From: Escherichia coli 042
Lineage (GTDB): Bacteria > Pseudomonadota > Gammaproteobacteria > Enterobacterales > Enterobacteriaceae
Length of the DNA stretch: 64,000 nucleotides
NCBI RefSeq assembly: GCF_000027125.1
Contig: NC_017626.1
Direction: 5' to 3' (one strand)
The notes below the pieces were generated by a model. It was given only the letters and a program-made list of their open reading frames with translations. It had not been told where the DNA came from and searched no databases. The position numbers were made by a program, and so were the translations under genes. Positions 1 to 43,375 of this stretch are shown piece after piece; position 1 is the first letter of the stretch; every line of letters begins with the position of its first letter.

Positions 1-99
1 AACAGACGGCAGAACATAATTTGTCGTGAGTGCCGCCAGAGCGAAGTTATGCAGCGTGTGCTGGCGTTCTATCGGGGAAACTTTCAGGAGGTGATGGAG

Positions 100-395
100 T
101 GAGGGTCAGAGTTTATATTGCCGGTCCAATGACGGGATATGAAAATTTCAACCGTGAGGCGTTTCACAAGGCGGAAGAGGAACTGAAACGGGAAGGGCAT
201 ACCGTCTTAAACCCGGCAGTACTTCCGGACGGGCTGACACAGCCGCACTACATGGATATTTGCATGGCAATGATTCGTTGTGTGGATGCGATTTACATGC
301 TGAATGGCTGGCAGCGGTCAGCGGGCGCTAAGGCAGAGCTGGCACTGGCGGAGAAACTGGGGCATGCAGTGATTTATCAGGAGGTGGCTCAATGA
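100..395 (+). CDS. Phage nin-region protein, possibly DUF4406/nucleoside 2-deoxyribosyltransferase-like
   Basis: ORF 30..395; likely GTG start at 100 after GGAGG at 88-92; motif VYIAGPMTGY recalled from DUF4406-type phage proteins. Confidence 0.45.
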
Positions 396-853
396 GAGAG
401 GTTAACTATGAGGCGCTTCGTGAGGCAGCACAAAACTATCAGTCGACGCTGGCGTGGTATCAGGCTATCCCGGACAGCCCAAATGCTGAACGGGATTGTG
501 ATGCGGCTCTTGCTGCGTTTAAGCGTCACATCCGTCATCGGGAAGCGGATATTATCGCTGATTTGCTGGATGGACTGGAAGAAGCAAAATCACAACTCAA
601 AGAGCAGCGTGAGTATTACGAAGGCGTTATCTCTGATGGGAGCAAGCGTATTGCTGAACTGGAAGCGCGGGAAGTTCAATTACCGACTCGCTACGACCTT
701 CGATATGGACACCCGATAAATGCAGATGAGCGACATGTCATGATACCTAAAGAAAATGGCAGTTGGCTTTACCTGATTGACTTAGAACACGCATTACGCG
801 TCGCTGGCATTCGCATCAAAGGAGAGGAGCATGGAAATAAAACCAGAGGATGA
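392..853 (+). CDS. Hypothetical phage protein
   Basis: 153-aa ORF, start overlaps upstream stop (ATGA), typical nin-region packing. Confidence 0.45.
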   Translation: MREVNYEALREAAQNYQSTLAWYQAIPDSPNAERDCDAALAAFKRHIRHREADIIADLLDGLEEAKSQLKEQREYYEGVISDGSKRIAELEAREVQLPTRYDLRYGHPINADERHVMIPKENGSWLYLIDLEHALRVAGIRIKGEEHGNKTRG

Positions 854-1187
854 GTTAAGCAATATCGTTTTATTTCCGGTAAAAGAGGATGACCCTCGTA
901 ATCAGGTTAATTTTCTTTATGAGCCATCGGAAAGACCATATTGTCATCACGCCTCTGTTCGGGTTGACGAAAAAGAGCGTCAGGTCCGCTGTAAAATCTG
1001 CGGTGCAGTTGTGGAGCCGTTTGACTGGATGCTCTCTGTGGCGAAAAGAGAAACCAGACTGGCAGATGATGTAAGGCTATTGCGCCAGGAGGAACAGGAA
1101 AGGCGGAAAAATATAGAAAAGTTAATTCAGATTGAGCGTAACGCGAAAGCGCGGATATGCAGGGCGACAAAATCCAGAACTGAATAA
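831..1187 (+). CDS. Hypothetical phage protein with CxxC pair
   Basis: 118-aa ORF; CHH...CKIC cysteine cluster suggests a zinc ribbon. Confidence 0.4.
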   Translation: MEIKPEDELSNIVLFPVKEDDPRNQVNFLYEPSERPYCHHASVRVDEKERQVRCKICGAVVEPFDWMLSVAKRETRLADDVRLLRQEEQERRKNIEKLIQIERNAKARICRATKSRTE

Positions 1188-1282
1188 TTAAATTTAGCAC
1201 TGTAAATAAAATCAAATCCTTAACCGGAGGGATTTCTGCACCCTCAGAACATCAGGAGGCCGTCCGAAAGGGCGGTAGTGAA

Positions 1283-1465
1283 ATGCGAAAATTCAAAATA
1301 ATTATTGAAACGGGAATAGCCGGTGGAGATTTCGAGGATGAATTCGAAGTGGATGATGATGCAACACCAGATGAAATACAGGATGAAGCTAAAGATATTT
1401 TCTTTAACTACTGCAATTACTCATACCACGAAATAAAAGACGAAGAGGAAGAACAAAATGGCTGA
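1283..1465 (+). CDS. Hypothetical small acidic protein
   Basis: 60-aa ORF, RBS-like GGAGG upstream. Confidence 0.3.
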   Translation: MRKFKIIIETGIAGGDFEDEFEVDDDATPDEIQDEAKDIFFNYCNYSYHEIKDEEEEQNG

Positions 1466-1634
1466 TTTTGGTTCAACTAAATATAACGCCAGTTTTGAAG
1501 AATGGCATGAACTGTTAATGGATTATGCAGAGTTACGCGGTGGAAGTGCCGCTGATGCTGAAGCATGGCGTGATGATTATGAAGCAGGGAAAACACCGGT
1601 CGAAGCATATTGTGATGAGTGGGGCGATGAATGA
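1458..1634 (+). CDS. Hypothetical small acidic protein
   Basis: 58-aa ORF (below the track's 60-aa cutoff) found by eye; start overlaps upstream stop and its stop overlaps next start (ATGA). Confidence 0.35.
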   Translation: MADFGSTKYNASFEEWHELLMDYAELRGGSAADAEAWRDDYEAGKTPVEAYCDEWGDE

Positions 1635-1990
1635 GCGAGATTAATTATCAGGAAGGGCATGAAAAGGTAGGGCAGGCAAAACCAGTGGCATGGCGATATC
1701 GCTACGTGAAAAAAGGCGTTACAGACTTTCAGGGGAAGCAGTGGGTTGGTGACTGGAAATATGTCCCGACAAAAGAGGATTGTAACGACAGACCAAACTA
1801 TGAAATTCAGGCGTTATTCACGGCCCCGCCAGCTTCGGTGACATCAGAAGGACTGGTTAAAGCTGTGCGCTTTTATGAACAGGTACGGCGTGAGGATCCG
1901 CCAGTTGAAACCGGAGCATGGAAAGACGCTATTGACTGGGTACTCAAGGAGGCCTGCCTGGTTGTAAACACGGGCATCAAAGGAGGCTGA
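1631..1990 (+). CDS. Hypothetical phage protein
   Basis: 119-aa ORF in overlapping gene chain. Confidence 0.45.
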   Translation: MSEINYQEGHEKVGQAKPVAWRYRYVKKGVTDFQGKQWVGDWKYVPTKEDCNDRPNYEIQALFTAPPASVTSEGLVKAVRFYEQVRREDPPVETGAWKDAIDWVLKEACLVVNTGIKGG

Positions 1991-2206
1991 ATGGGTATTG
2001 CCGCAAGTTATACCATGCATCTCTATTGTGATTGCCGCCAGTGTACGGATGGCAAATATCAGTCGCCAGATTTTGGTGAGTATATCGGTACGTCATGGGC
2101 TGGCTGTGCAAAAGAGGCACGTAAAGATGGGTGGCGAATAAGTGCCGACAAAACGCGTGCTTTTGCGCCAGGGCATAAAATTTTGAGGAGCAACAAAGGA
2201 GAGTGA
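1991..2206 (+). CDS. Hypothetical Cys-rich phage protein
   Basis: 71-aa ORF with CDCRQC motif. Confidence 0.4.
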   Translation: MGIAASYTMHLYCDCRQCTDGKYQSPDFGEYIGTSWAGCAKEARKDGWRISADKTRAFAPGHKILRSNKGE

Positions 2207-2207
2207 T

Positions 2208-2426
2208 GTGCCTACATTATTCAGAAAAGAATATCCGCGAAAAAGTAGAGCGACAGAATTTTTGTTTCTCATTCTGTTTATCGTGTTGATGATACCGATA
2301 TCCCCGTTAATTCTGGTATGGGGAATCGGAAAAATAATTGAGCCAGTTATTGAATTGTATAACGACGTGGTATGGGCTCCGTTCAACACACTGCACAATA
2401 AAATTAATCCGTATAAGGAAAACTGA
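2208..2426 (+). CDS. Small membrane protein
   Basis: 72-aa ORF with long hydrophobic segment FLFLILFIVLMIPISPLILVWGIG. Confidence 0.4.
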   Translation: MPTLFRKEYPRKSRATEFLFLILFIVLMIPISPLILVWGIGKIIEPVIELYNDVVWAPFNTLHNKINPYKEN

Positions 2427-2427
2427 T

Positions 2428-2691
2428 ATGGCAACTTTGACAAAAAAAGAACAGGCATGGTTGAACGAATTACAGGACGTTCTTGATCGCTGTCCATCAC
2501 CGAAAAAAATTGGTTTTTACACCATTGGCGATAAAAGCATTTACCTGTATGACCTGCGCCGCATGGATGAAATCATGGAGGCTCTTGATAATCGTTCGTC
2601 AATGGATTGGTGTGTTGCTGTCCATGATATGAATGCAGGGTTTGATGAAAAGATTTTGTTCCCCTCATCAGTTGAAAGCACTGCGGGTTAA
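2428..2691 (+). CDS. Hypothetical phage protein
   Basis: ATG at 2428 inside ORF 2338..2691, immediately after upstream stop. Confidence 0.4.
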   Translation: MATLTKKEQAWLNELQDVLDRCPSPKKIGFYTIGDKSIYLYDLRRMDEIMEALDNRSSMDWCVAVHDMNAGFDEKILFPSSVESTAG

Positions 2692-2701
2692 GGAGTAACA
2701 C

Positions 2702-2869
2702 ATGACCACTATTACCAAAGAACGTATTGAATTGTTCATTAAAAACCCGCTTGAAAACGGGCTTACCCGTGGTGAACAAATGGAACTGGCACGGATTGCG
2801 CTGGCATCGCTGGAAGCAGAGCCGGTTGTGTTCTGGTTTGAAAAATATCAAGAAGGGGCTACGGCATGA
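2702..2869 (+). CDS. Hypothetical phage protein, paralogous N-terminus to next gene
   Basis: 55-aa ORF by eye; shares MTT.T.E and IAL.SL.AEP motifs with ORF 2866..3210. Confidence 0.35.
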
Positions 2870-3210
2870 CGACTTTTACCAGAGAGCAGTTAATAGCTCA
2901 CGCAGAGGAGACTATTGAAGCACAGAGACTGTGCATACCGGGCACAATCGACCATGACATCATCCGCACATATAAGATGGATATTGCTGTTCTGGAAATC
3001 GCACTGGTATCGCTGGCAGCAGAGCCAGCCGGTAAATTGCATGAATACAAACCAGTGGGATATCAGCGTCTGGTCGATGAGTTAACCATGCTGGTAAAGC
3101 AGTTAACCTGGCAACTGAGGAAAGCGAAGCCAGACTGCAAATTACCGGATAAGGCGATGAGTTATCTGGAGCGGAACGGACTGATAAGCGTGGAGGATAT
3201 TTTACGATGA
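2866..3210 (+). CDS. Hypothetical phage protein
   Basis: 114-aa ORF, start overlaps upstream stop. Confidence 0.45.
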
Positions 3211-3501
3211 CCTGGCCTGAAGCATTAACAACGGTAGGAATTGCGATGGCGGTGGCGCTGGTGGTGTATTCGATTTGCCGCTGGGGATAAAAACGGTTTG
3301 CGGGAAAAGGAGAGTTAAGTAGAATTGCAGCGGGTGCTTGAGGCTATCTGTCTCAGGCATGAACACCAAAAGGCAGATAGAGAAAAGCCCCAGTTAACAT
3401 TACGCGTCCGGCAAGACGCTTAACATTAATCTGAGGCCATATCTATGCTCTACACACGTAGGTTAGCCTCTTACGTGCCGAAAGGCAAGGAGAAGCAGGC
3501 T

Positions 3502-3657
3502 ATGAAGCAGCAAAAGGCGATGCTAATCGCCCTGATCGTCATCTGTTTAACCGTCATTGTGACGGCACTGGTAACGAGGAAAGACCTCTGCGAGGTACGA
3601 ATCCGAACCGGCCAGACGGAGGTCGCTGTCTTCACAGCTTACGAACCTGAGGAGTAA
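3502..3657 (+). CDS. hokD: Hok/Gef-family type I toxin (HokD/RelF-like)
   Basis: 51-aa product MKQQKAMLIALIVICLTVIVTALVTRKDLCEVRIRTGQTEVAVFTAYEPEE matches my recollection of the Hok family (TM helix, conserved Cys, C-terminal AYE); in-frame upstream extension from 3445; hairpins downstream. Confidence 0.8.
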   Translation: MKQQKAMLIALIVICLTVIVTALVTRKDLCEVRIRTGQTEVAVFTAYEPEE

Positions 3658-3727
3658 GAGACCCGGCGGGGGAGTAATCTCCCGCCACCTCTGATGTGCC
3701 AGGCATCCTCAACGCACCCGCACTTAA

Positions 3728-3746
3728 CCCGCTTCGGCGGGTTTTT
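3728..3746 (+). terminator. Rho-independent terminator hairpin (copy 1 of a 20-bp repeat)
   Basis: cccgcttcggcggg followed by T-run; identical sequence recurs at 5563-5582. Confidence 0.6.
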
Positions 3747-3822
3747 GCATTAGTCTGGTTGACAAAAATAGAAAAATGCGAAAATATGTGGTTTACGAAT
3801 TCTAAAAAAAGCGAAACTTGAA

Positions 3823-4473
3823 ATGAATGAAAATCAGTTAGCTCCTTGTTGGGAATTTCAACCTTATCTTGCTGAAAACTATGTTCGCCACTTGTTGGCG
3901 GAGATCGCTAACGTACTTGAGCAGCTGTACTATCATAAGCACGCATTAGACAGCAACTGGTCTGAAGGTGTAAGGGCTTATGATTGGGTCAGAAATCATC
4001 TTATTCAAAATGAAGATGCAATTCCTGGCCTTGAGATGATTTCCAAGGGGTTGGACTATGTAGTTGCTTTAAATAAAGTTCCGCTACAATTTACCAAAGA
4101 TTGCATTAATAACCCCAAAAAGAAACATCGTCTGCGTCGAAATAAAGTAGAGTATGAGCAGCTCTCATTGTTTGGTGATGTTGAGGCTGAGCAAGATATT
4201 ACATGGCGAGTCATAGCTGAGCCTTTTTTATCCGAAGAGGGCGATGGTGAATTAGAGTCCACACTGCCTCGTTGGGAGGTAGCTCTTGTTGGATTTAATA
4301 CTTATGGTGCTCAGATTAGTATAGTTTCTCATCAATCTACAGCATCGATGCCGCTTATGCCTCTTGATTATAACACACTCCCTGACGAAGCGGAGATTAA
4401 TAAGGTGCCTCTTCGTCGGCGTACGAAGGATAAAGATTTGGATGTGAGCAGTGATGGAACATCAGGTGAATAA
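3823..4473 (+). CDS. Unknown 216-aa protein, upstream partner of HTH-peptidase (candidate toxin/effector)
   Basis: AT-rich ORF after TTGACA-containing promoter-like region; overlaps downstream gene by 23 nt; no family recognised by eye. Confidence 0.6.
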   Translation: MNENQLAPCWEFQPYLAENYVRHLLAEIANVLEQLYYHKHALDSNWSEGVRAYDWVRNHLIQNEDAIPGLEMISKGLDYVVALNKVPLQFTKDCINNPKKKHRLRRNKVEYEQLSLFGDVEAEQDITWRVIAEPFLSEEGDGELESTLPRWEVALVGFNTYGAQISIVSHQSTASMPLMPLDYNTLPDEAEINKVPLRRRTKDKDLDVSSDGTSGE

Positions 4474-5557
4474 CTTCACTGAGTATCGGGGTGATAAGCT
4501 CAAACTAGCGAGAATGGCTGTTGGGCTTTCTTGTGAAGAGTTAGCCGAAAAAATTGGCAAGACAAAGCAATTCGTTAGCAAACTGGAGAAGGGGTGCAGG
4601 CCATCGGAGCAATGTCTTGAGTTAATATCTTCAGCGCTTATGATTAAGTCCAGTTTTCTTTTTACTGAACGAAAATACGCTCTGGAAAGTGATGTCTGCC
4701 ATTTTCGGAGTAAGAAGTCCAGGACTCAAACGCTGACTAATAGTGTATTGGCCAGGGCTGAGATTCTTAATATTATAATTTCTGCTGTTGAAGGTGAAAT
4801 CGAATTTCCTGACGTTAACATACCGGAGCACCCAGGGGCTGAATTACTTACTCCGAATGATATTGAGCGAGTGGCAGAAGATTGTCGCCGTGCCTGGAAT
4901 TTAGGTCTTGGCCCTATATCATCAATGGTTAAATTGGCGGAGAGTTTAGGGGTAATCGTTGCGCATGTTACGGGAGTCGATGATCGTGTTGATGCTTTTA
5001 CTGTTCACAATAACAGGCCTGTTATCATCAGGAACAATGTTAAAAAAAGCATATGTAGATTTCGCTCTGATTTAGGTCATGAATTAGGGCATTTAGTAAT
5101 GCATGAGGGCATAACGACAGGTGATAAACTTACGGAATCACAAGCCGATCACTTTTCGAGCGCCTTATTAGTTCCCAGGTTATCTTTCATTAAAGAATTT
5201 CCACGAATACGAGGTAAGCAATTCGACTGGAATGCTCTGGTTGAATTTAAACTTAGATGGAAAATCAGCCTTAAAATGTGTATTTATCGAGCCAGCGCAT
5301 TAGGCTTATTGACCCAGGAACAGGCAAGAACTGGCTATATGCATCTTAATTCCAGAGGGTATACGAGAGTTGAACCTGGTGATGAACTTTTGCGCCCTGA
5401 AGAACCCGGCATGCTGGCCGAGGCGATTGAAATGCTGGATGATGCAACCTGGCTAAGAATTCTTATGAAAACTGGCTTGAGCCAAGATTTAATTCGTGAG
5501 TTGTTCTCCATCAACAGACCTATTACAAATCCAAGAAATATTTTCCAGATTGTTTGA
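4451..5557 (+). CDS. XRE-family HTH fused to ImmA/IrrE-type (HEXXH) zinc metallopeptidase
   Basis: N-terminal HTH (LARMAVGLSCEELAEKIGKTKQFVSKLEKG); C-terminal HELGHLVMHE motif typical of ImmA/IrrE (COG2856/M78-like) peptidases. Confidence 0.7.
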   Translation: MMEHQVNNFTEYRGDKLKLARMAVGLSCEELAEKIGKTKQFVSKLEKGCRPSEQCLELISSALMIKSSFLFTERKYALESDVCHFRSKKSRTQTLTNSVLARAEILNIIISAVEGEIEFPDVNIPEHPGAELLTPNDIERVAEDCRRAWNLGLGPISSMVKLAESLGVIVAHVTGVDDRVDAFTVHNNRPVIIRNNVKKSICRFRSDLGHELGHLVMHEGITTGDKLTESQADHFSSALLVPRLSFIKEFPRIRGKQFDWNALVEFKLRWKISLKMCIYRASALGLLTQEQARTGYMHLNSRGYTRVEPGDELLRPEEPGMLAEAIEMLDDATWLRILMKTGLSQDLIRELFSINRPITNPRNIFQIV

Positions 5558-5562
5558 GTATA

Positions 5563-5582
5563 CCCGCTTCGGCGGGTTTTTT
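5563..5582 (+). terminator. Rho-independent terminator hairpin (copy 2)
   Basis: cccgcttcggcggg plus T-run directly after the 4451..5557 stop. Confidence 0.6.
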
Positions 5583-5714
5583 GTTTTTATTTTCAACGTG
5601 TTTGAAGTTTTGGACGGTGCCAGAATAGAATCAAAAATACTTAAGTAGCGCGCAGGGAGAAGAGGGATGGACCCCGAACAGGGGGAGTGCTATTTATCTG
5701 GAAGGATTCTGTTG

Positions 5715-5888
5715 ATGAAAATCGAAGAATTACGTGAAATTTTTAGTGAAGATGGCCTCTATGCTGTGCGCGTTGAGAATGGGGGTATTACCTACACAGC
5801 GTTAATTCCTGATGATCATGTAGTGTTATCTGTTGAGGCATTCATTGAATACTTGGAAAGACTCGGTTTCAAGGTAGTTCGGGAATAA
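5715..5888 (+). CDS. Hypothetical small protein
   Basis: ATG at 5715 within ORF 5667..5888 (MKIEELREIF...); AT-rich upstream region. Confidence 0.35.
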   Translation: MKIEELREIFSEDGLYAVRVENGGITYTALIPDDHVVLSVEAFIEYLERLGFKVVRE

Positions 5889-5935
5889 GTTATAATACGT
5901 GAGCCAGCCTGAACAACTGGCAACCTGCAGCGCCA

Positions 5936-6220
5936 TTGGAGATGACAATGGCGCATAATTTCAAATTTCGCAATTCTGATTCTGCCTTTGCCAGCAGGCA
6001 CGGGTGGCGTTCTCACGCATTCAAATATGACTGGTATCAGCACGATCCCTGTACTGAAGAACAGGCCGAATGGCTGATTCATAACTACCGCAGACGTGGA
6101 TATGAGTTTAGGAAAGCCCTCACCCTCGATTATCGTCACTGGATAATCTACGTCAGACTCCCTTATTCCGAACGCCCACCGCGTCCGTCCCGCACATTCC
6201 AGCAACGCATCTGGAGGTAA
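5936..6220 (+). CDS. Hypothetical phage protein (rem-like position)
   Basis: 94-aa ORF directly upstream of the DUF968 gene, same position as rem in Qin. Confidence 0.4.
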   Translation: MEMTMAHNFKFRNSDSAFASRHGWRSHAFKYDWYQHDPCTEEQAEWLIHNYRRRGYEFRKALTLDYRHWIIYVRLPYSERPPRPSRTFQQRIWR

Positions 6221-36901: not shown

Positions 36902-39900
36902 ATGACAGTAAAAATTTCTGGCGTGCTTAAAGATGGCACAGGAAAACCAGTACAGAACTGCACCATTGTGCTGAAGGCCAGACGAACCAGCAGCACGGTG
37001 GTGGTGAACACGGTGGCCTCTGAAAATCCGGATGAAGCCGGACGTTACAGCATGGATGTTGAGCATGGTCAGTACAGCGTCACCCTGCTGGTTGAAGGTT
37101 TTCCGCCTTCACATGCCGGGACCATTACCGTCTATGAAGGTTCCAGATCAGGTACGCTGAATGATTTTCTCGGTGCCATGACGGAGGATGATGTCCGACC
37201 GGAGGCACTGCGCCGCTTTGAGCAGATGGTGGAAGAGGTGTCACGTAACGCCTCCGCGGTTGCACAGAATACGGCAGCCGCGAAAAAATCAGCCAGCGAT
37301 GCCAGTGCATCAGCCAGCGAGGCGGCAACTCATGCAACCGATGCTGCAGCCTCAGCACGTGCCGCCAGCACGTCAGCCGGACAGGCCGCGTCGTCGGCTC
37401 AGTCAGCGTCTTCCAGCGCAGGAACGGCATCGACAAAGACCCGTGAAGCAGCAAAAAGTGCTGCTGCTGCAGAGTCATCAAAAAGCGCGGCAGCTACCAG
37501 CGCCAGTGCCGCGAAAACGTCAGAAACGAATGCCGCAGCATCACAAAAATCGGCAGCCACTTCTGCATCCACAGCGACCACGAAGGCGTCAGAAGCTGCC
37601 ACCTCGGCACGGGGTGCGGCGGCCTCAAAAGAGGCAGCGAAATCTTCAGAAACGAATGCATCATCAAGTGCCAGTAGTGCAGCTTCCTCGGCAACGGCGG
37701 CAGGAAATTCCGCGAAGGCGGCAAAAACGTCCGAGACGAACGCTAAGTCTTCTGAAACAGCAGCGGGACAGAGCGCCTCAGCTGCGGCAGGTTCAAAAAC
37801 AGCGGCTGCATTATCTGCCAGTGCCGCGTCAACAAGTGCCGGGCAGGCCTCAGCCAGTGCCACCGCCGCCGGAAAATCGGCAGAAAGCGCCGCATCATCC
37901 GCTTCAACAGCCACAACGAAGGCTGGCAAAGCCACTGAGCAAGCCACTGCAGCAGCGAGGTCTGCTTCTGCAGCAAAAACCTCTGAAACAAATGCAAAGA
38001 CTTCAGCAGACAATGCTGCTTCCTCTAAGGCGGCAGCCGCATCGTCAGCCAGTTCAGCGGCGTCATCGGCATCATCTGCGTCTGCTTCAAAAGATGAGGC
38101 GACCAGACAAGCGTCAGCAGCGAAAGGTAGTGCCACGACAGCAACAACGAAAGCATCAGAGGCGGCAGGCAGTGCGACGGCTGCATCTCAGAGCAAAGTT
38201 GCTGCTGAATCCGCGGCAACGCGCGCCGAGACAGCAGCAAAACGGGCAGAGGATATTGCATCCGCCGTGGCGCTGGAGGATGCGAGCACGACGAAAAAGG
38301 GGATAGTACAGCTCAGCAGTGCAACAAACAGCACCAGTGAAAAGCTGGCGGCAACGCCAAAGGCAGTTAAAACTGTTAAAGATAGTTCAGTTCAAAAAAC
38401 TGGCGACACAATGGGAGGGCAGTTAAAAATCAGCACGATAAATGCTCTTCGAATATTCAACCAAGCCTTTGGCCTTATTTTTAGGCGTTCCGAAGATCAT
38501 CTTCATCTTATTCCGACTAATGAAGGGGAGGGGGAAAATGGAGACATCGGTTCATTAAGACCATTCTCTATAAACTTAAGATCAGGGTTGGTGTCCATCG
38601 GTAATGGACTAAAAGTTGGTGGTAGTGTTACTGGTAATTTGACCGGAAACGCAGATACTGCGACCAAGATCAAGACAGCACGTAAGATTGGGGGCGTGGC
38701 ATTTGATGGATCGGCAGATATCAACTTGCCTGGAGTCAACGCTACCGGTAATCAAAACACTACAGGTAATGCTGCGACCGCCACGAAACTTCAGGCAGCC
38801 AGAACGATTAACGGTGTGTCATTTGATGGTAGTGCAAATATCACATTGACCCCTTCAAATATTGGGGCATTGGCATTAACTGGAGGGACTCTTTCAGGTG
38901 GTTTAACTGCTGCTGGTGAGGTTATTTCAAGGTCAGCAAATGGTCTGCGTATTGCCTATGGCAACTATGGATTCTTTATCCGAAATGATGGATCAAACAC
39001 ATATTTTATGTTGACAGATTCGGGTAACAGTCTTGGTACGCACAATAGCTTAAGGCCGTTTATAATTAGTAACCATACTGGCAATGTTACAATTGCAACT
39101 AAATTAAACGCGAGTGGTGGTATCACTGGATCTTTATCGGGTAATGCAAGCACAGCAACCAAATTGCAAACTGCAAGGACAATTAACGGCGTAAAATTTG
39201 ACGGCTCGGCAAATATTGAAGCGTTTCCGCCAGGTGTTCCGCTGCCGTGGCCATCAGATACACCACCTGCAGGTTATGCAATCATGCAGGGGCAGACGTT
39301 TGATAAGGCAGCATATCCGAAACTGGCTATTGCCTATCCTTCAGGTGTTATTCCAGATATGCGCGGCTGGACAATCAAGGGCAAACCCGCCAGTGGCCGG
39401 GCCGTATTGTCTCAGGAACAGGACGGCATTAAATCGCACACCCACAGCGCCAGCGCATCCAGTACGGATTTGGGGACGAAAAACACATCGTCGTTTGATT
39501 ACGGAACCAAATCCACGAATAACACCGGGGCGCATACCCATAGTATTAGCGGGACTGCAAATAGTGCCGGTGCGCACCAACACAAGAGTTCCGGTGCATT
39601 TGGTGGCACGAACACGAGCATTTTCCCTAATGGTTATACCGCGATTTCAAATCTAAGCGCGGGGATTATGAGCACAACAAGCGGTAGTGGCCTGACTCGT
39701 AATGCAGGGAAGACATCATCAGATGGTGCTCATACCCACTCGCTGTCCGGCACTGCTGCAAGCGCAGGCGCACATGCACATACTGTCGGTATTGGTGCTC
39801 ATACGCACTCCGTTGCGATTGGCTCACATGGACACACCATCACCGTTAACGCTGCTGGTAACGCGGAAAACACCGTCAAAAACATCGCATTTAACTATAT

Positions 39901-39916
39901 TGTGAGGCTTGCATAA
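36902..39916 (+). CDS. stf: Side tail fibre protein with long Ala/Ser/Thr-rich repetitive region
   Basis: 1004 aa; repeated KTSETNA-containing modules at roughly aa 100-470; repeats of '[G/N]GV(S/K)FDGSA' in the C-terminal half. Confidence 0.85.
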
Positions 39917-40500
39917 TGGTATTCAGAATGAGTGAACAACCACGGACCATAACAATTTATAATCTGCTGGCCGGAACTAATGAATTTATTGGTGAAGGTG
40001 ATGCATATATTCCGCCTCATACAGGTCTGCCAGCAAACAGTACCGATATTGCACCGCCAGATATTCCGGCAGGCTTCGTGGCTGTTTTCAACAGTGATGA
40101 GGCATCGTGGCATCTCGTTGAAGATCATCGGGGTAAAACGGTTTATGACGTGGCTTCCGGCGACGCGTTATTTATTTCTGAACTCGGTCCGTTACCGGAA
40201 AATGTTACCTGGTTATCGCCGGAAGGGGAGTTTCAGAAGTGGAACGGCACAGCCTGGGTGAAGGATACGGAAGCAGAAAAACTGTTCCGGATCCGGGAGG
40301 CGGAAGAAACAAAAAACAACCTGATGCAGGTAGCCAGTGAGCATATTGCGCCGCTTCAGGATGCTGCAGATCTGGAAATTGCAACGGAGGAAGAAACCTC
40401 ATTGCTGGAAGCCTGGAAAAAGTATCGGGTGTTGCTGAACCGTGTTGATACATCAACTGCACCTGATATTGAGTGGCCTACGAACCCTGTCAGGGAGTAA
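39916..40500 (+). CDS. tfa: Tail fibre assembly protein
   Basis: 194 aa directly after stf with ATGA overlap. Confidence 0.8.
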
Positions 40501-40554
40501 TCATTGGGATTATGCCGCAGCACGTCTTAAGCAAGAACGTGCTGCGGTTGGATG

Positions 40555-41223
40555 CTATTTTTTCCCTGAAGCGGAAAACATTACTACAGTACCTTGAACC
40601 TTGGTTTTAACATTCTCGAAATGCTCTGAGAGTATATGTGTTAAGCCTTCTTCGGAATCTTTTGTGTTTGAAAAGATGCCTTTCTGATTGTAAATGCGCA
40701 TCAGTTTTTGACCGAAGCTATTGTGCACAACTCCATCGCCAAGAATTGTGGCTCCGTATAGAGTTCCATCGTCAGTTAAGGCCTGCGCCGCATTGCGTAT
40801 TACACAGCTTTTTGTAGATATATTTCCAGGCAGGCAGTGAAGAAGGTAAAACATGGAAATGGAATCAAATTGACCATGTAACGCCGCGGGATAAGGTTCA
40901 AAAACATCATGGCTAATTTTATGTTTAATTTTTGATTCCCCAGCCCTTGTAGATGCCGCGTTCAGGCTAGCTTCGTTCAAATCCATTAAAGATATCAGAC
41001 TACTCTCAGGTACGTGAGTAAGGTAAAACCCAGTTCCAACACCAATATCCAGATGGTTGTTACCTAAATGTTCCAGAAAGTGTGGAAGAAGGTGTTCCTT
41101 TGTAGGACATCCCCATGCAAGCCGATTTGATACTCCCAAAACCCACCAGTCATAAAGCTTTAGGGTAAGTGGTGTGTAAATTTTAGCCCCATCATCTGTG
41201 TTTTTTTTCATTAATTTCACCAT
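40555..41223 (-). CDS. Class I SAM-dependent methyltransferase (cargo gene)
   Basis: 222 aa, AT-rich, opposite strand; HLDIGVGTGF resembles the Rossmann motif I of SAM methyltransferases. Confidence 0.6.
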   Translation of the reverse strand: MVKLMKKNTDDGAKIYTPLTLKLYDWWVLGVSNRLAWGCPTKEHLLPHFLEHLGNNHLDIGVGTGFYLTHVPESSLISLMDLNEASLNAASTRAGESKIKHKISHDVFEPYPAALHGQFDSISMFYLLHCLPGNISTKSCVIRNAAQALTDDGTLYGATILGDGVVHNSFGQKLMRIYNQKGIFSNTKDSEEGLTHILSEHFENVKTKVQGTVVMFSASGKK

Positions 41224-41279
41224 GTTATAGTTTTATTTGTGAATTAAATCAATTATGGCGATGAATTACAAGGGGTTAA

Positions 41280-41549
41280 ATGCTGCCGCAGCATAGCGAT
41301 ATTGAAATAGCCTGGTATGCTTCGATACAGCAGGAGCCGAATGGCTGGAAGACCGTCACCACACAGTTCTACATCCAGGAATTCAGTGAGTATATTGCGC
41401 CACTGCAGGATGCTGTAGATCTGGAAATCGCAACGGAGGAAGAAAGATCGTTGCTGGAGGCATGGAATAAATATCGGGTATTGTTGAATCGTGTTGATAC
41501 ATCAACTGCACCTGATATTGAGTGGCCTGCAAATCCTGTCAGGGAGTAA
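41280..41549 (+). pseudogene. Truncated second copy of tail fibre assembly gene
   Basis: 89-aa ORF whose last ~55 aa nearly duplicate the C-terminus of Tfa 39916..40500. Confidence 0.5.
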
Positions 41550-42322
41550 TCATTGGGATTATGCCGCAGACACGTCGTATGCAGGAACGTGCTGCGGTTA
41601 GTTTGTGAGCTTTCGATAGTGGTTGTTATTTTTGCCCTTATTTGTTCCGGAGGCCATGGTTCAATGGTCCGTCTGCCCCCTGTGGTGATGTCAGCAAAAT
41701 CAGCCACTGCGCGAACCACAATAGCCCGGGAAGATGCTGAAGATCACCAGGTAAAGCTGTCAGCGCAGAAACTGGAAGAACTGCTCGCATCAATGGTTAA
41801 GGATGAGGTTGATCGCAATGATGGGATTTATTGACGTCAGCGAGAGCAGAAGGAAGAACTGAATAACCTGAATGATTTACGCTCAATCAGAGCGATGATG
41901 ATTGGCAGTAATTAGCGGTCAATTTCGGTTTTTTTGGCTGTGCGCTCCCCGCCCAGCATTGCGCGTCAATTAGCCCCAAAAAAACGAAAAAGTTACAATC
42001 AAGTAAAAAATTCCTTCTGCAAAACTAAAAAAGATTTCAATAAAATCAGACAGTTAAAAGCATAAAAAAAGGTACAAAAAAAACATCTCAAAGTCTTGTT
42101 TTTTGCTTCAAATACAATTGGTTATTGTGTTTTTTGAAACCTACCAGTCTGGTACATGGATATCGATACCACCGCCAATTATAAGCTGGGCGGTGCACAG
42201 CAACACGATAGCGTACGCCTCGATCCGTGGGTGTTTATGTTCTCAGCAGGATATCGTTTTTAATTCCGCACAAAAACGACCCCGTAATATACGGGGTCAA
42301 TAAGGACATGGTATAAAGGGTA

Positions 42323-42829
42323 TTATTTCTTCGCTTCTACGCCATCAGTTTCAGAGCGAATTAAAAATTTCTCAGTTGTTTGCGGAATATGCTGAATCAG
42401 CCAGTCGGCCATTTCTTTTTCCTCATTTAAAATCGCTTCGATGGTTGGAATTGAAGCTGTATCACCGGCATTTTTTGCTGCTGCTAATAGTGAGGTGTAA
42501 CAGGCGATTTCAAATTGCTCGAAGACATATCCGCTAATAGAGCCTTTGACTATTTCATCAGAAGGGAATATACCACCGATTGACTGCCCAAGCGCAGCCA
42601 TTTTACTCATGGAATCTTTAATGACTGAACGTGAAATGTCATTACGATCAAGAATAGTTTCCAGTTGAACAATCTGGTTTTTGGTTTCACTAAGATGTTG
42701 TTCAATACGAGCGCGTAGTTCAGGATAATTATCTATACGACTAGCCATGGATTCAAGCATAGATTCGGCTTGCTTTTCCATTGCGTGGGCGTCACGTAAC
42801 CAGTCATGATAATGTTCAATACGATTCAT
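42323..42829 (-). CDS. yciE: YciE (ferritin-like, DUF892)
   Basis: 168 aa; recalled as E. coli YciE by sequence and position next to yciF. Confidence 0.85.
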   Translation of the reverse strand: MNRIEHYHDWLRDAHAMEKQAESMLESMASRIDNYPELRARIEQHLSETKNQIVQLETILDRNDISRSVIKDSMSKMAALGQSIGGIFPSDEIVKGSISGYVFEQFEIACYTSLLAAAKNAGDTASIPTIEAILNEEKEMADWLIQHIPQTTEKFLIRSETDGVEAKK

Positions 42830-42874
42830 GAAAATGTCCTCTTTATAAAATGACTAAAAGTTAAAGTTCATATT

Positions 42875-43375
42875 TCAGGCTTTATTTTCGGCTTTCTTAT
42901 TTACGTTATTAAGTGCCAGATCAGTCAGTTTGATGTCGGTGGCCTTTTCTTCTTCCAGGGTTTCTTTCAGAAGCTTCGCTGCTTTACGATAACCTAATTG
43001 TTCAGCCAGCGTTGCTAAGGTCCCGTAACTGGCGATCTCATAGTGCTCGACCTTCTGTGCAGCGGCAATCAGTGCGGCATCACGCACTTCGTTTTTCTCG
43101 GTGCTTTCGATGACCTCATTAGCTTCATCAATTAGACCTTCCATTGCCACACATTTCATGCGCTTAATTTTCAGGTTCGATTCGGACTCCACAACTTGAT
43201 CAATACGTTCAATCTGTCCATGAGTTTCCTCGAGGTGCGCATGAAAAGCCTGACTTAATTTTTCGTTTGATGTTGCTCTTGCGAGTTTTGCCAGTGCCCG
43301 GGTTAATTGTTTTTCTGCGCTGTAGGTATCTGAAAGCAGGTGAATAAATACATCTTCAATGGTCTTCATATTCAT
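42875..43375 (-). CDS. yciF: YciF (DUF892 stress protein)
   Basis: Start taken at MNMKTIEDVF... inside ORF 42875..43423. Confidence 0.85.
   Translation of the reverse strand: MNMKTIEDVFIHLLSDTYSAEKQLTRALAKLARATSNEKLSQAFHAHLEETHGQIERIDQVVESESNLKIKRMKCVAMEGLIDEANEVIESTEKNEVRDAALIAAAQKVEHYEIASYGTLATLAEQLGYRKAAKLLKETLEEEKATDIKLTDLALNNVNKKAENKA

What the first reader, a model, noticed from the sequence alone, without database searches (positions are those of the whole stretch)
41550..42322. Prophage-chromosome junction next to yciE
Phage-like sequence ends shortly after the truncated tfa copy. A ~450-bp AT-rich stretch with no convincing genes precedes yciE. The prophage therefore appears to sit on the ompW side of yciE-trp, as inferred from recalled gene order; ompW itself is not in the window. 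The exact attR core cannot be identified without the left end.
Basis: inference. Interest (0 to 1): 0.3.

Follow-up and report, generated by a model that had tools for sequence, protein, structure and literature searches.

The report
Prophage right end inside ompW
This is the ordinary, already published right-hand junction (attR) of a lambda-like prophage inserted inside the E. coli outer-membrane gene ompW; the displaced last 41 codons of ompW sit next to yciE.

Summary
Phage DNA does not stop after the truncated tfa copy. It runs on through a DUF4376 pseudogene (41,646-41,915) and a non-coding arm to about 42,144. Homology with prophage-free K-12 starts at 42,145, inside ompW. So the window does contain ompW sequence: the last 41 codons plus the stop (42,138-42,263), then the ompW/yciE terminator hairpin and yciE.

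Window 42,145-42,265 is the 121-bp att published for 'PPompW' prophages (Nakamura 2021). Only the first 28 bp (42,145-42,172) are identical in attB, attL, attR and attP, so the crossover lies there. The truly AT-rich part is 132 bp (42,013-42,144, 26.5% GC). It is conserved among otherwise unrelated ompW phages and begins at a CTGCAAAAC motif that recurs three times beside the integrase gene.

At the unseen left end, related genomes show a phage-supplied substitute ompW 3' end that keeps the gene full length, as e14 does at icd. About a quarter to a third of complete E. coli genomes carry such junctions. Verdict: already known, low interest. One side point: the substitute end changes the last inter-strand loop of OmpW, inferred to be surface-exposed, and it comes in at least two alleles.

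The parts
41280..41549 (+). Truncated tail-fibre-assembly (tfa) copy, the second copy of the tfa 3' end
   Evidence: Pfam Caudo_TAP, C-terminal part only, E 6e-25. PGAP marks 41,373-41,549 as a partial tfa pseudogene in relatives. 41,373-41,599 is an 89-90% direct repeat of 40,324-40,549.
41646..41915 (+). DUF4376 (tfa-like) pseudogene with an internal stop; still phage DNA
   Evidence: PGAP annotation in PCN033, CB7453 and NCTC86, mapped to window coordinates. No Pfam hit for the 93-aa ORF at 41,553-41,831.
41916..42012 (.). Non-coding phage-end DNA specific to this phage lineage
   Evidence: Shared with phage record CP025907.1 but unrelated in other ompW prophages. Its hairpin folds no better than shuffled sequence, z about -0.3 to -0.4.
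42013..42144 (.). Conserved attP-derived arm (P arm) of attR; this is the AT-rich stretch
   Evidence: 26.5% GC. Conserved across five other att regions whose upstream DNA is unrelated. Megablast matches of other ompW prophages begin at about 41,998-42,017.
42017..42025 (+). Candidate arm-type integrase-binding site CTGCAAAAC
   Evidence: The 10-mer TCTGCAAAAC occurs exactly once in the 64-kb window, here. It is invariant in all six aligned arms and marks the start of conservation. The same motif occurs three times in tandem just after the phage-borne ompW stop, next to int. Binding is inferred, not shown.
42044..42056 (+). IHF-like site AATCAGACAGTTA (one mismatch to WATCAANNNNTTR)
   Evidence: The PPompW and O157 arms read AATCAATCAGTTA at the same place, a perfect match. 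This is a consensus match only.
42145..42265 (+). 121-bp att homology, the host copy at attR
   Evidence: 120/121 identical to K-12 ompW. 94/121 identical to the phage-borne copy at attL of NCTC86, which is 121/121 identical to the annotated 'duplication due to insertion of PPompW_132418'. The 121-bp attL/R is reported in PMC8112680.
42145..42172 (+). Identity block shared by attB, attL, attR and attP (CAGTSTGGTACATGGATATCGATACCAC); the crossover region
   Evidence: The 23 nt at 42,150-42,172 are invariant in every sequence compared. Position 42,149 is C or G in both phage and host contexts. There is weak dyad symmetry, TGGTA...TACCA.
42138..42263 (+). Displaced ompW 3' remnant (41 codons plus stop), non-functional
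   Evidence: PGAP lists it as 'OmpW family, missing N-terminus' in relatives. An in-frame TGA sits at 42,135-42,137 just upstream. The translation from 42,147 onward, VWYMDIDTTANYKLGGAQQHDSVRLDPWVFMFSAGYRF*, equals the K-12 OmpW C-terminus; the three codons before it (42,138-42,146) are phage-derived.
42277..42299 (.). ompW/yciE intergenic terminator hairpin (host DNA)
   Evidence: 10-bp GC-rich stem with a T-run on the minus strand. Folding z about -2.4 on both strands. Identical in K-12.
42323..42829 (-). yciE, the first intact host gene
   Evidence: Pfam DUF892, E 6e-51. Annotated as yciE in all relatives.

Best explanation
The interval holds attR of a lambda-like prophage of the published 'PPompW' kind, integrated inside the 3' part of ompW.

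How it works: a lambda-Int-type tyrosine integrase (50% identical to e14 IntE) recombined the phage attP with attB in ompW codons 174-183. The crossover fell within the 28-bp identity block at window 42,145-42,172.

The phage carries, between this block and its int gene, its own substitute copy of the last ~30 ompW codons. At the unseen left end (attL) the gene is therefore rebuilt in frame. At attR the original host 3' end is left behind as a dead 126-nt remnant next to yciE.

The 132-bp AT-rich stretch just left of the core is the P arm of attP. It probably carries one arm-type Int site (CTGCAAAAC) and an IHF site, which would be needed with Xis for excision.

Shown: the junction position, the remnant, contiguity of attP in a phage record, the rebuilt ompW in relatives, and the integrase domains. 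Inferred: the protein binding sites, the exact cleavage points, and that this particular genome has the same attL.
For: - K-12 and BL21 empty sites match only from window 42,145 onward.
- The attB/attL/attR alignment gives the reciprocal pattern expected of site-specific recombination.
- The inferred attP is contiguous in phage record CP025907.1, at 99.1% identity over 923 nt.
- NCTC86 has both ends around one prophage: an intact 639-nt ompW abutting int/xis at the left, and the same MTase-tfa'-DUF4376'-ompW'-yciE order at the right.
- The published 121-bp att equals window 42,145-42,265.
- The integrase has Arm-DNA-bind_1 and Phage_integrase domains, and the excisionase is lambda-like.
- The integrase is 50% identical to e14 IntE.
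- The P arm is conserved among unrelated phages, starting at the CTGCAAAAC motif. The motif recurs three times next to int.
- Junctions of this type occur in 1,283 (attR) and 1,714 (attL) of 5,426 complete genomes.
Against: The left end of this prophage is not in the window, so a rebuilt ompW in this genome is inferred from relatives. The prophage that matches the window's first 6 kb in ABU 83972 sits in sfaF/focD instead of ompW, so left-end variation does exist. No binding or excision data exist for this element. The IHF match has one mismatch, and only one arm-type motif is seen in the P arm.
Confidence: 0.93

Rival explanations
1. One reading: the prophage lies in the intergenic space between an intact ompW (outside the window) and yciE, and the AT-rich stretch is host intergenic DNA.
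For: Gene order ompW-yciE-yciF-yciG-trp is correct. No full ompW is in the window.
Against: Host homology starts inside ompW at nucleotide ~520 of 639, not after it. The K-12 ompW-yciE spacer is only 59 bp. The AT-rich stretch is contiguous with phage DNA in a phage record and is absent from empty sites.
Confidence: 0.02
2. Integration simply disrupts ompW, as stated in passing by Bobay et al. 2013. On this view the remnant is one half of an inactivated gene and the lysogen lacks OmpW.
For: PMC3603311 says the gene is disrupted at ompW, in contrast to icd. The attL of this genome is unseen.
Against: In NCTC86, O157:H7, O55:H7, ST131 and others, a full-length ompW is annotated directly beside the integrase, in 10 of 10 sampled lysogens. 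The rebuilt protein differs from K-12 only at residues 185-194.
Confidence: 0.06
3. The junction is a decay or rearrangement scar (deletion or homologous recombination between prophages), not a site-specific att junction.
For: The right end is littered with tfa and DUF4376 pseudogenes and a repeat-flanked insert. Nakamura et al. report inversions between prophages at ompW and ydfJ.
Against: The breakpoint is the same to the base in 1,283 genomes that carry different phages. It also coincides with attP in a phage record.
Confidence: 0.03
4. The AT-rich stretch encodes a small protein or sRNA of its own (for example the 43-aa ORF at 41,934-42,065).
For: An ORF of 43 aa exists.
Against: There is no Rfam match in 41,550-42,322. 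Promoter-like sites are no more frequent than in shuffled sequence. The ORF spans the lineage-specific segment, which is unrelated in other ompW phages. Folding is no better than shuffles.
Confidence: 0.03

Closest known systems
PPompW prophages of STEC/EPEC (Nakamura et al. 2021, PLoS Pathog, PMC8112680; records LC567818-LC567841)
   Same: Same integration site in ompW and the same 121-bp att (121/121 for the phage-borne copy in NCTC86 against the annotated PPompW_132418 repeat). The int-side 528 nt are 99.4% identical. The P arm is conserved from the CTGCAAAAC motif to the core.
   Different: The cargo next to attR differs. PPompW_132418 of O145:H28 carries nleG, with other DNA to the left of the arm. 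This phage carries a tfa duplication, a SAM-methyltransferase and a DUF4376 pseudogene. The P arm is only about 87-89% identical.
e14 (and phage 21) integration into icd of E. coli K-12
   Same: Integration is inside the 3' end of a protein-coding gene. The element supplies a substitute 3' end so that ORF length is kept. The integrases are homologous: 50% identity to e14 IntE over the full length. Bobay 2013 describes the icd case this way.
   Different: The target gene and the core sequence differ. Here the substituted segment concentrates its amino-acid changes (7 of 38 codons, or a +5 aa insertion) in one loop between the last two predicted strands, inferred to be surface-exposed. I did not analyse the icd substitution myself.
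Bacteriophage lambda attP/attR architecture
   Same: The integrase has an N-terminal arm-binding domain and sits with a lambda-type Xis. The arms are AT-rich. Three tandem arm-type-like motifs lie on the int side and one on the other arm, and there is an IHF-like site.
   Different: The core lies inside a gene. About 95 bp of substitute coding sequence separate the core from the int-side arm motifs. No binding data exist. The sequences are unrelated to lambda att.

Membership tests
PPompW-type prophage att site in ompW | Junction falls inside ompW, with the 121-bp att homology present at the prophage end | tested here: met
   Window 42,145-42,265 is 120/121 identical to K-12 ompW and 94/121 to the annotated PPompW repeat. 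The empty-site match begins at 42,145.
PPompW-type prophage att site in ompW | IntE-like integrase and excisionase adjacent to attL | not testable with these tools
   The left end is not in the window. In NCTC86, whose prophage matches window 1-6,000 at 100%, int and xis abut the rebuilt ompW.
PPompW-type prophage att site in ompW | attP exists as a contiguous sequence joining the two prophage ends | tested here: met
   The inferred attP (window P arm + core + NCTC86 int side) matches CP025907.1 at 99.1% over 923 nt in one piece. Circular forms of PPompW were detected by PCR in PMC8112680.
Lambda-Int-type (arm-binding tyrosine recombinase) attachment site | Integrase with an arm-binding N-terminal domain and a tyrosine-recombinase catalytic domain | tested here: met
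   Pfam Arm-DNA-bind_1 (7e-22) and Phage_integrase (1.3e-16) on the NCTC86 integrase. This is a relative, not the window itself.
Lambda-Int-type (arm-binding tyrosine recombinase) attachment site | Repeated arm-type sites in both arms | tested here: inconclusive
   CTGCAAAAC occurs once in the P arm (42,017-42,025), where it is invariant in six arms, and three times on the int side.
Lambda-Int-type (arm-binding tyrosine recombinase) attachment site | Core with inverted core-type sites around a short overlap, and IHF sites in the arms | tested here: inconclusive
   Weak dyad TGGTA...TACCA within 42,150-42,172. The IHF consensus at 42,044-42,056 has one mismatch here and is perfect in PPompW arms.
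icd-type integration with 3'-end substitution (e14 / phage 21) | The element carries a substitute 3' end that keeps the target ORF intact | tested here: met
   The rebuilt ompW is 212 aa in NCTC86 and ST131 and 217 aa in JE86-ST05. It is annotated as intact ompW in 10 of 10 sampled lysogens. This is shown in relatives only.
icd-type integration with 3'-end substitution (e14 / phage 21) | The displaced host 3' end persists as a pseudogene at the other prophage end | tested here: met
   Window 42,138-42,263, with an in-frame stop immediately upstream.

The most novel reading that the evidence does not exclude
The phage-borne ompW 3' cassette acts as a reversible allele swap of the last OmpW loop (L4), inferred to be surface-exposed.

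Lysogeny replaces ANYKLGGAQQHDS with AKYKSGVTTVKDS. In another phage lineage the replacement is AKYKSDGRKLAKGSYSDN, which is five residues longer. The flanking beta-strands stay identical, and the original allele is kept silent at attR, so excision would restore it.

If the loop contributes to recognition by colicin S4 or by OmpW-dependent phages, integration itself would be a lysogenic conversion of a receptor. I found no paper describing this, and one paper states the gene is disrupted.

The pattern could equally be neutral: capture of the 3' end of a foreign ompW, in which loops diverge fastest.
Probability: 0.2. Interest if true: 0.4.

Novelty: already known. Interest (0 to 1): 0.12.

Why it matters
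It matters mostly for annotation.
- It fixes the prophage boundary to the base.
- It shows that the small 'OmpW family' pseudogene next to yciE is the scar of integration, not gene decay.
- It shows that ompW stays functional-length in such lysogens, contrary to a passing statement in the literature.

ompW is one of the busiest prophage sites in E. coli: about 24-32% of complete genomes carry these junctions. It hosts Stx and effector-carrying prophage clusters, so correct att coordinates help prophage typing. The loop substitution is a cheap hypothesis to test for colicin S4 or phage sensitivity.

Tried and rejected
- A single-sequence AlphaFold2 model of the rebuilt OmpW was unusable (mean pLDDT 28.5). 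The loop assignment therefore rests on the published eight-strand topology and is an inference.
- The T-run/A-run hairpin at 41,915-42,000 was considered as a terminator or a sib-like retroregulator. It folds no better than shuffled sequence, so I dropped it.
- The Rfam scan of 41,200-42,900 found only a sub-threshold IS009 hit over the tfa remnant.
- The promoter scan found nothing above the shuffle expectation.
- I tried to use the C at 42,149 to place the crossover. C and G each occur on both phage and host sides in other genomes, so it is uninformative.
- I tested whether the window's methyltransferase is the e14 YmfD homologue. There is no similarity.
- BW2952 lacks e14, so MG1655 was used for IntE.
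- The solved enterobacterial OmpW 8qxp carries yet another loop sequence, so it is not the source of the phage alleles.
- I ran no further search on the origin of the cassettes.

Full report
**What is in the interval.** Reading 40,800-43,200 and listing ORFs shows three things: the truncated tfa copy at 41,280-41,549, no intact gene between 41,550 and 42,322, and yciE at 42,323-42,829 on the minus strand. The bases 42,147-42,263 translate to VWYMDIDTTANYKLGGAQQHDSVRLDPWVFMFSAGYRF*. This is the C-terminus of K-12 OmpW.

**Placing the junction.** A megablast of 41,550-42,900 against 5,426 complete E. coli genomes sorts the hits into classes.
- 598 genomes match the whole query.
- Others match from about 41,998-42,017 onward.
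- Prophage-free strains such as K-12 and BL21 match only from 42,145, and the feature annotated there is ompW.

PGAP annotation in PCN033, CB7453 and NCTC86 maps onto the window as follows:
- partial tfa, 41,373-41,549;
- DUF4376 pseudogene with an internal stop, 41,646-41,915;
- 'OmpW family, missing N-terminus' pseudogene, 42,138-42,263;
- yciE, 42,323-42,829.

Mapping the K-12 empty-site locus onto the window shows that everything left of ompW nucleotide ~520 (yciA, yciB, yciC and the ompW 5' part) is absent. The prophage left end is therefore outside the window.

**Defining the att site.** The first 6 kb of the window is 100% identical to a prophage in NCTC86 and ABU 83972. In NCTC86 a full-length 639-nt ompW is annotated directly against a phage integrase and excisionase. 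The right end of the same prophage has the same order as the window: methyltransferase, tfa', DUF4376', ompW', yciE.

Aligning attB (K-12), attL (NCTC86) and attR (window) gives the reciprocal pattern of site-specific recombination.
- attL is host to the left and phage to the right of TGGTACATGGATATCGATACCAC.
- attR is phage to the left and host to the right of the same block.

With five further att regions (one attP and four attR), the identity block is CAGTSTGGTACATGGATATCGATACCAC, window 42,145-42,172. An attP built from the window's left arm and the NCTC86 right arm is found as one piece in phage record CP025907.1, at 99.1% identity over 923 nt. This shows that 41,750-42,172 is phage DNA.

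Homology between the host and phage copies continues imperfectly to 42,265. It is 94/121 identical, with 11 synonymous and 7 non-synonymous codon differences. The phage copy in NCTC86 is 121/121 identical to the feature 'duplication due to insertion of PPompW_132418' in LC567822. Nakamura et al. 2021 report integration into ompW 'with an attL/R sequence of 121 bp' (PMC8112680). Window 42,145-42,265 is that published att. The crossover must lie in its first 28 bp.

**The AT-rich stretch.** The extreme part is 42,013-42,144, at 26.5% GC. In an alignment of six att regions whose upstream DNA is unrelated, conservation begins at CTGCAAAAC (42,017-42,025) and runs to the core.
- The 10-mer TCTGCAAAAC occurs exactly once in the 64-kb window, here.
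- The motif recurs three times in tandem just after the phage-borne ompW stop, next to int.
- The integrase has a lambda-type arm-binding domain and a tyrosine-recombinase domain, and its neighbour is a lambda-type excisionase.

I therefore read 42,013-42,144 as the P arm of attP, with one arm-type site and an IHF-like site at 42,044-42,056. That site has one mismatch here and is perfect in PPompW arms. These binding sites are inferences.

The segment 41,916-42,012 is lineage-specific phage DNA without detectable structure. The hairpin at 42,277-42,299 is the host ompW/yciE terminator.

**Mechanism and consequences.** The phage carries a substitute ompW 3' end, so attL rebuilds a 212-codon gene. 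It differs from K-12 OmpW only at residues 185-194. The rebuilt junction is present in 1,714 of 5,426 genomes and is annotated as intact ompW in all ten sampled lysogens. The attR-type junction is present in 1,283 genomes.

The original 3' end stays at attR as a dead remnant, preceded by an in-frame TGA. This is the same strategy described for e14 at icd (PMC3603311), and the integrase is 50% identical to e14 IntE. The same paper says ompW is 'disrupted' by integration. The sequences examined here do not support that.

**A side observation.** The substituted residues lie between the last two predicted strands of an eight-stranded barrel that has long extracellular loops and short periplasmic turns (PDB 2F1T and 2MHL matched; topology from PMC2993939). 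They should therefore form the last extracellular loop.
- Empty-site genomes are 96.7-100% identical over the 121 bp.
- Phage cassettes come in at least two forms: AKYKSGVTTVKDS, and a variant five residues longer, AKYKSDGRKLAKGSYSDN.
- OmpW is the primary receptor of colicin S4 (PMC2649078).

Whether the swap changes any phenotype is untested. Loops also diverge fastest between species, so neutral capture of a foreign 3' end explains the pattern equally well.

**Verdict.** The junction is real and ordinary. It is the attR of a known class of ompW-integrating lambdoid prophage.

Noticed in passing
window 40,324-40,549 and 41,373-41,599, flanking 40,555-41,223 (-): An 89-90% direct repeat of the tfa 3' end brackets a class I SAM-dependent methyltransferase gene on the opposite strand. 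It looks like a moron inserted by duplication of the tfa end. The gene is not related to e14 YmfD.
   Followed up: partly
window 41,303-41,506 (+): Rfam IS009 (RF02111) matches at 112.5 bits, just under its gathering score of 117. The match lies entirely over the truncated tfa copy, so this 'sRNA' family may simply model a conserved tfa fragment.
   Followed up: no
L003 2,340-2,480 and L012 9,300-9,460 (E. coli ABU 83972, NC_017631.1): A prophage 100% identical to window 1-6,000 is inserted inside the F1C/S fimbrial usher gene sfaF/focD instead of ompW. It brings its ompW 3' cassette with it. The junctions share only CGGTC-type microhomology with the att core. This looks like a secondary-site integration that inactivates the usher.
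   Followed up: partly
L014 220-873 (E. coli JE86-ST05, NZ_AP022815.1): A second phage-borne ompW 3' allele gives a 217-aa OmpW with a five-residue longer last loop (AKYKSDGRKLAKGSYSDN), next to a related integrase.
   Followed up: partly
L013 220-858 (ST131, NZ_OY019088.1): The host-derived part of ompW in ST131 is itself a divergent allele: the whole protein is 89% identical to K-12, with changes clustered in a few short segments. It has C at the position equivalent to window 42,149.
   Followed up: no
PMC3603311 (Bobay et al. 2013), section 'Integration Hotspots': The paper states that prophage integration disrupts ompW, unlike icd. Every attL examined here rebuilds a full-length ompW.
   Followed up: yes
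window 36,902-39,916 (+) versus L020 3,993-9,083 (NCTC86): The window has a single 1,004-aa tail-fibre gene with a long Ala/Ser-rich low-complexity region. At the same place NCTC86 has split tail-fibre genes, opposed tfa genes and a recombinase fragment, which suggests an invertible tail-fibre segment.
   Followed up: no
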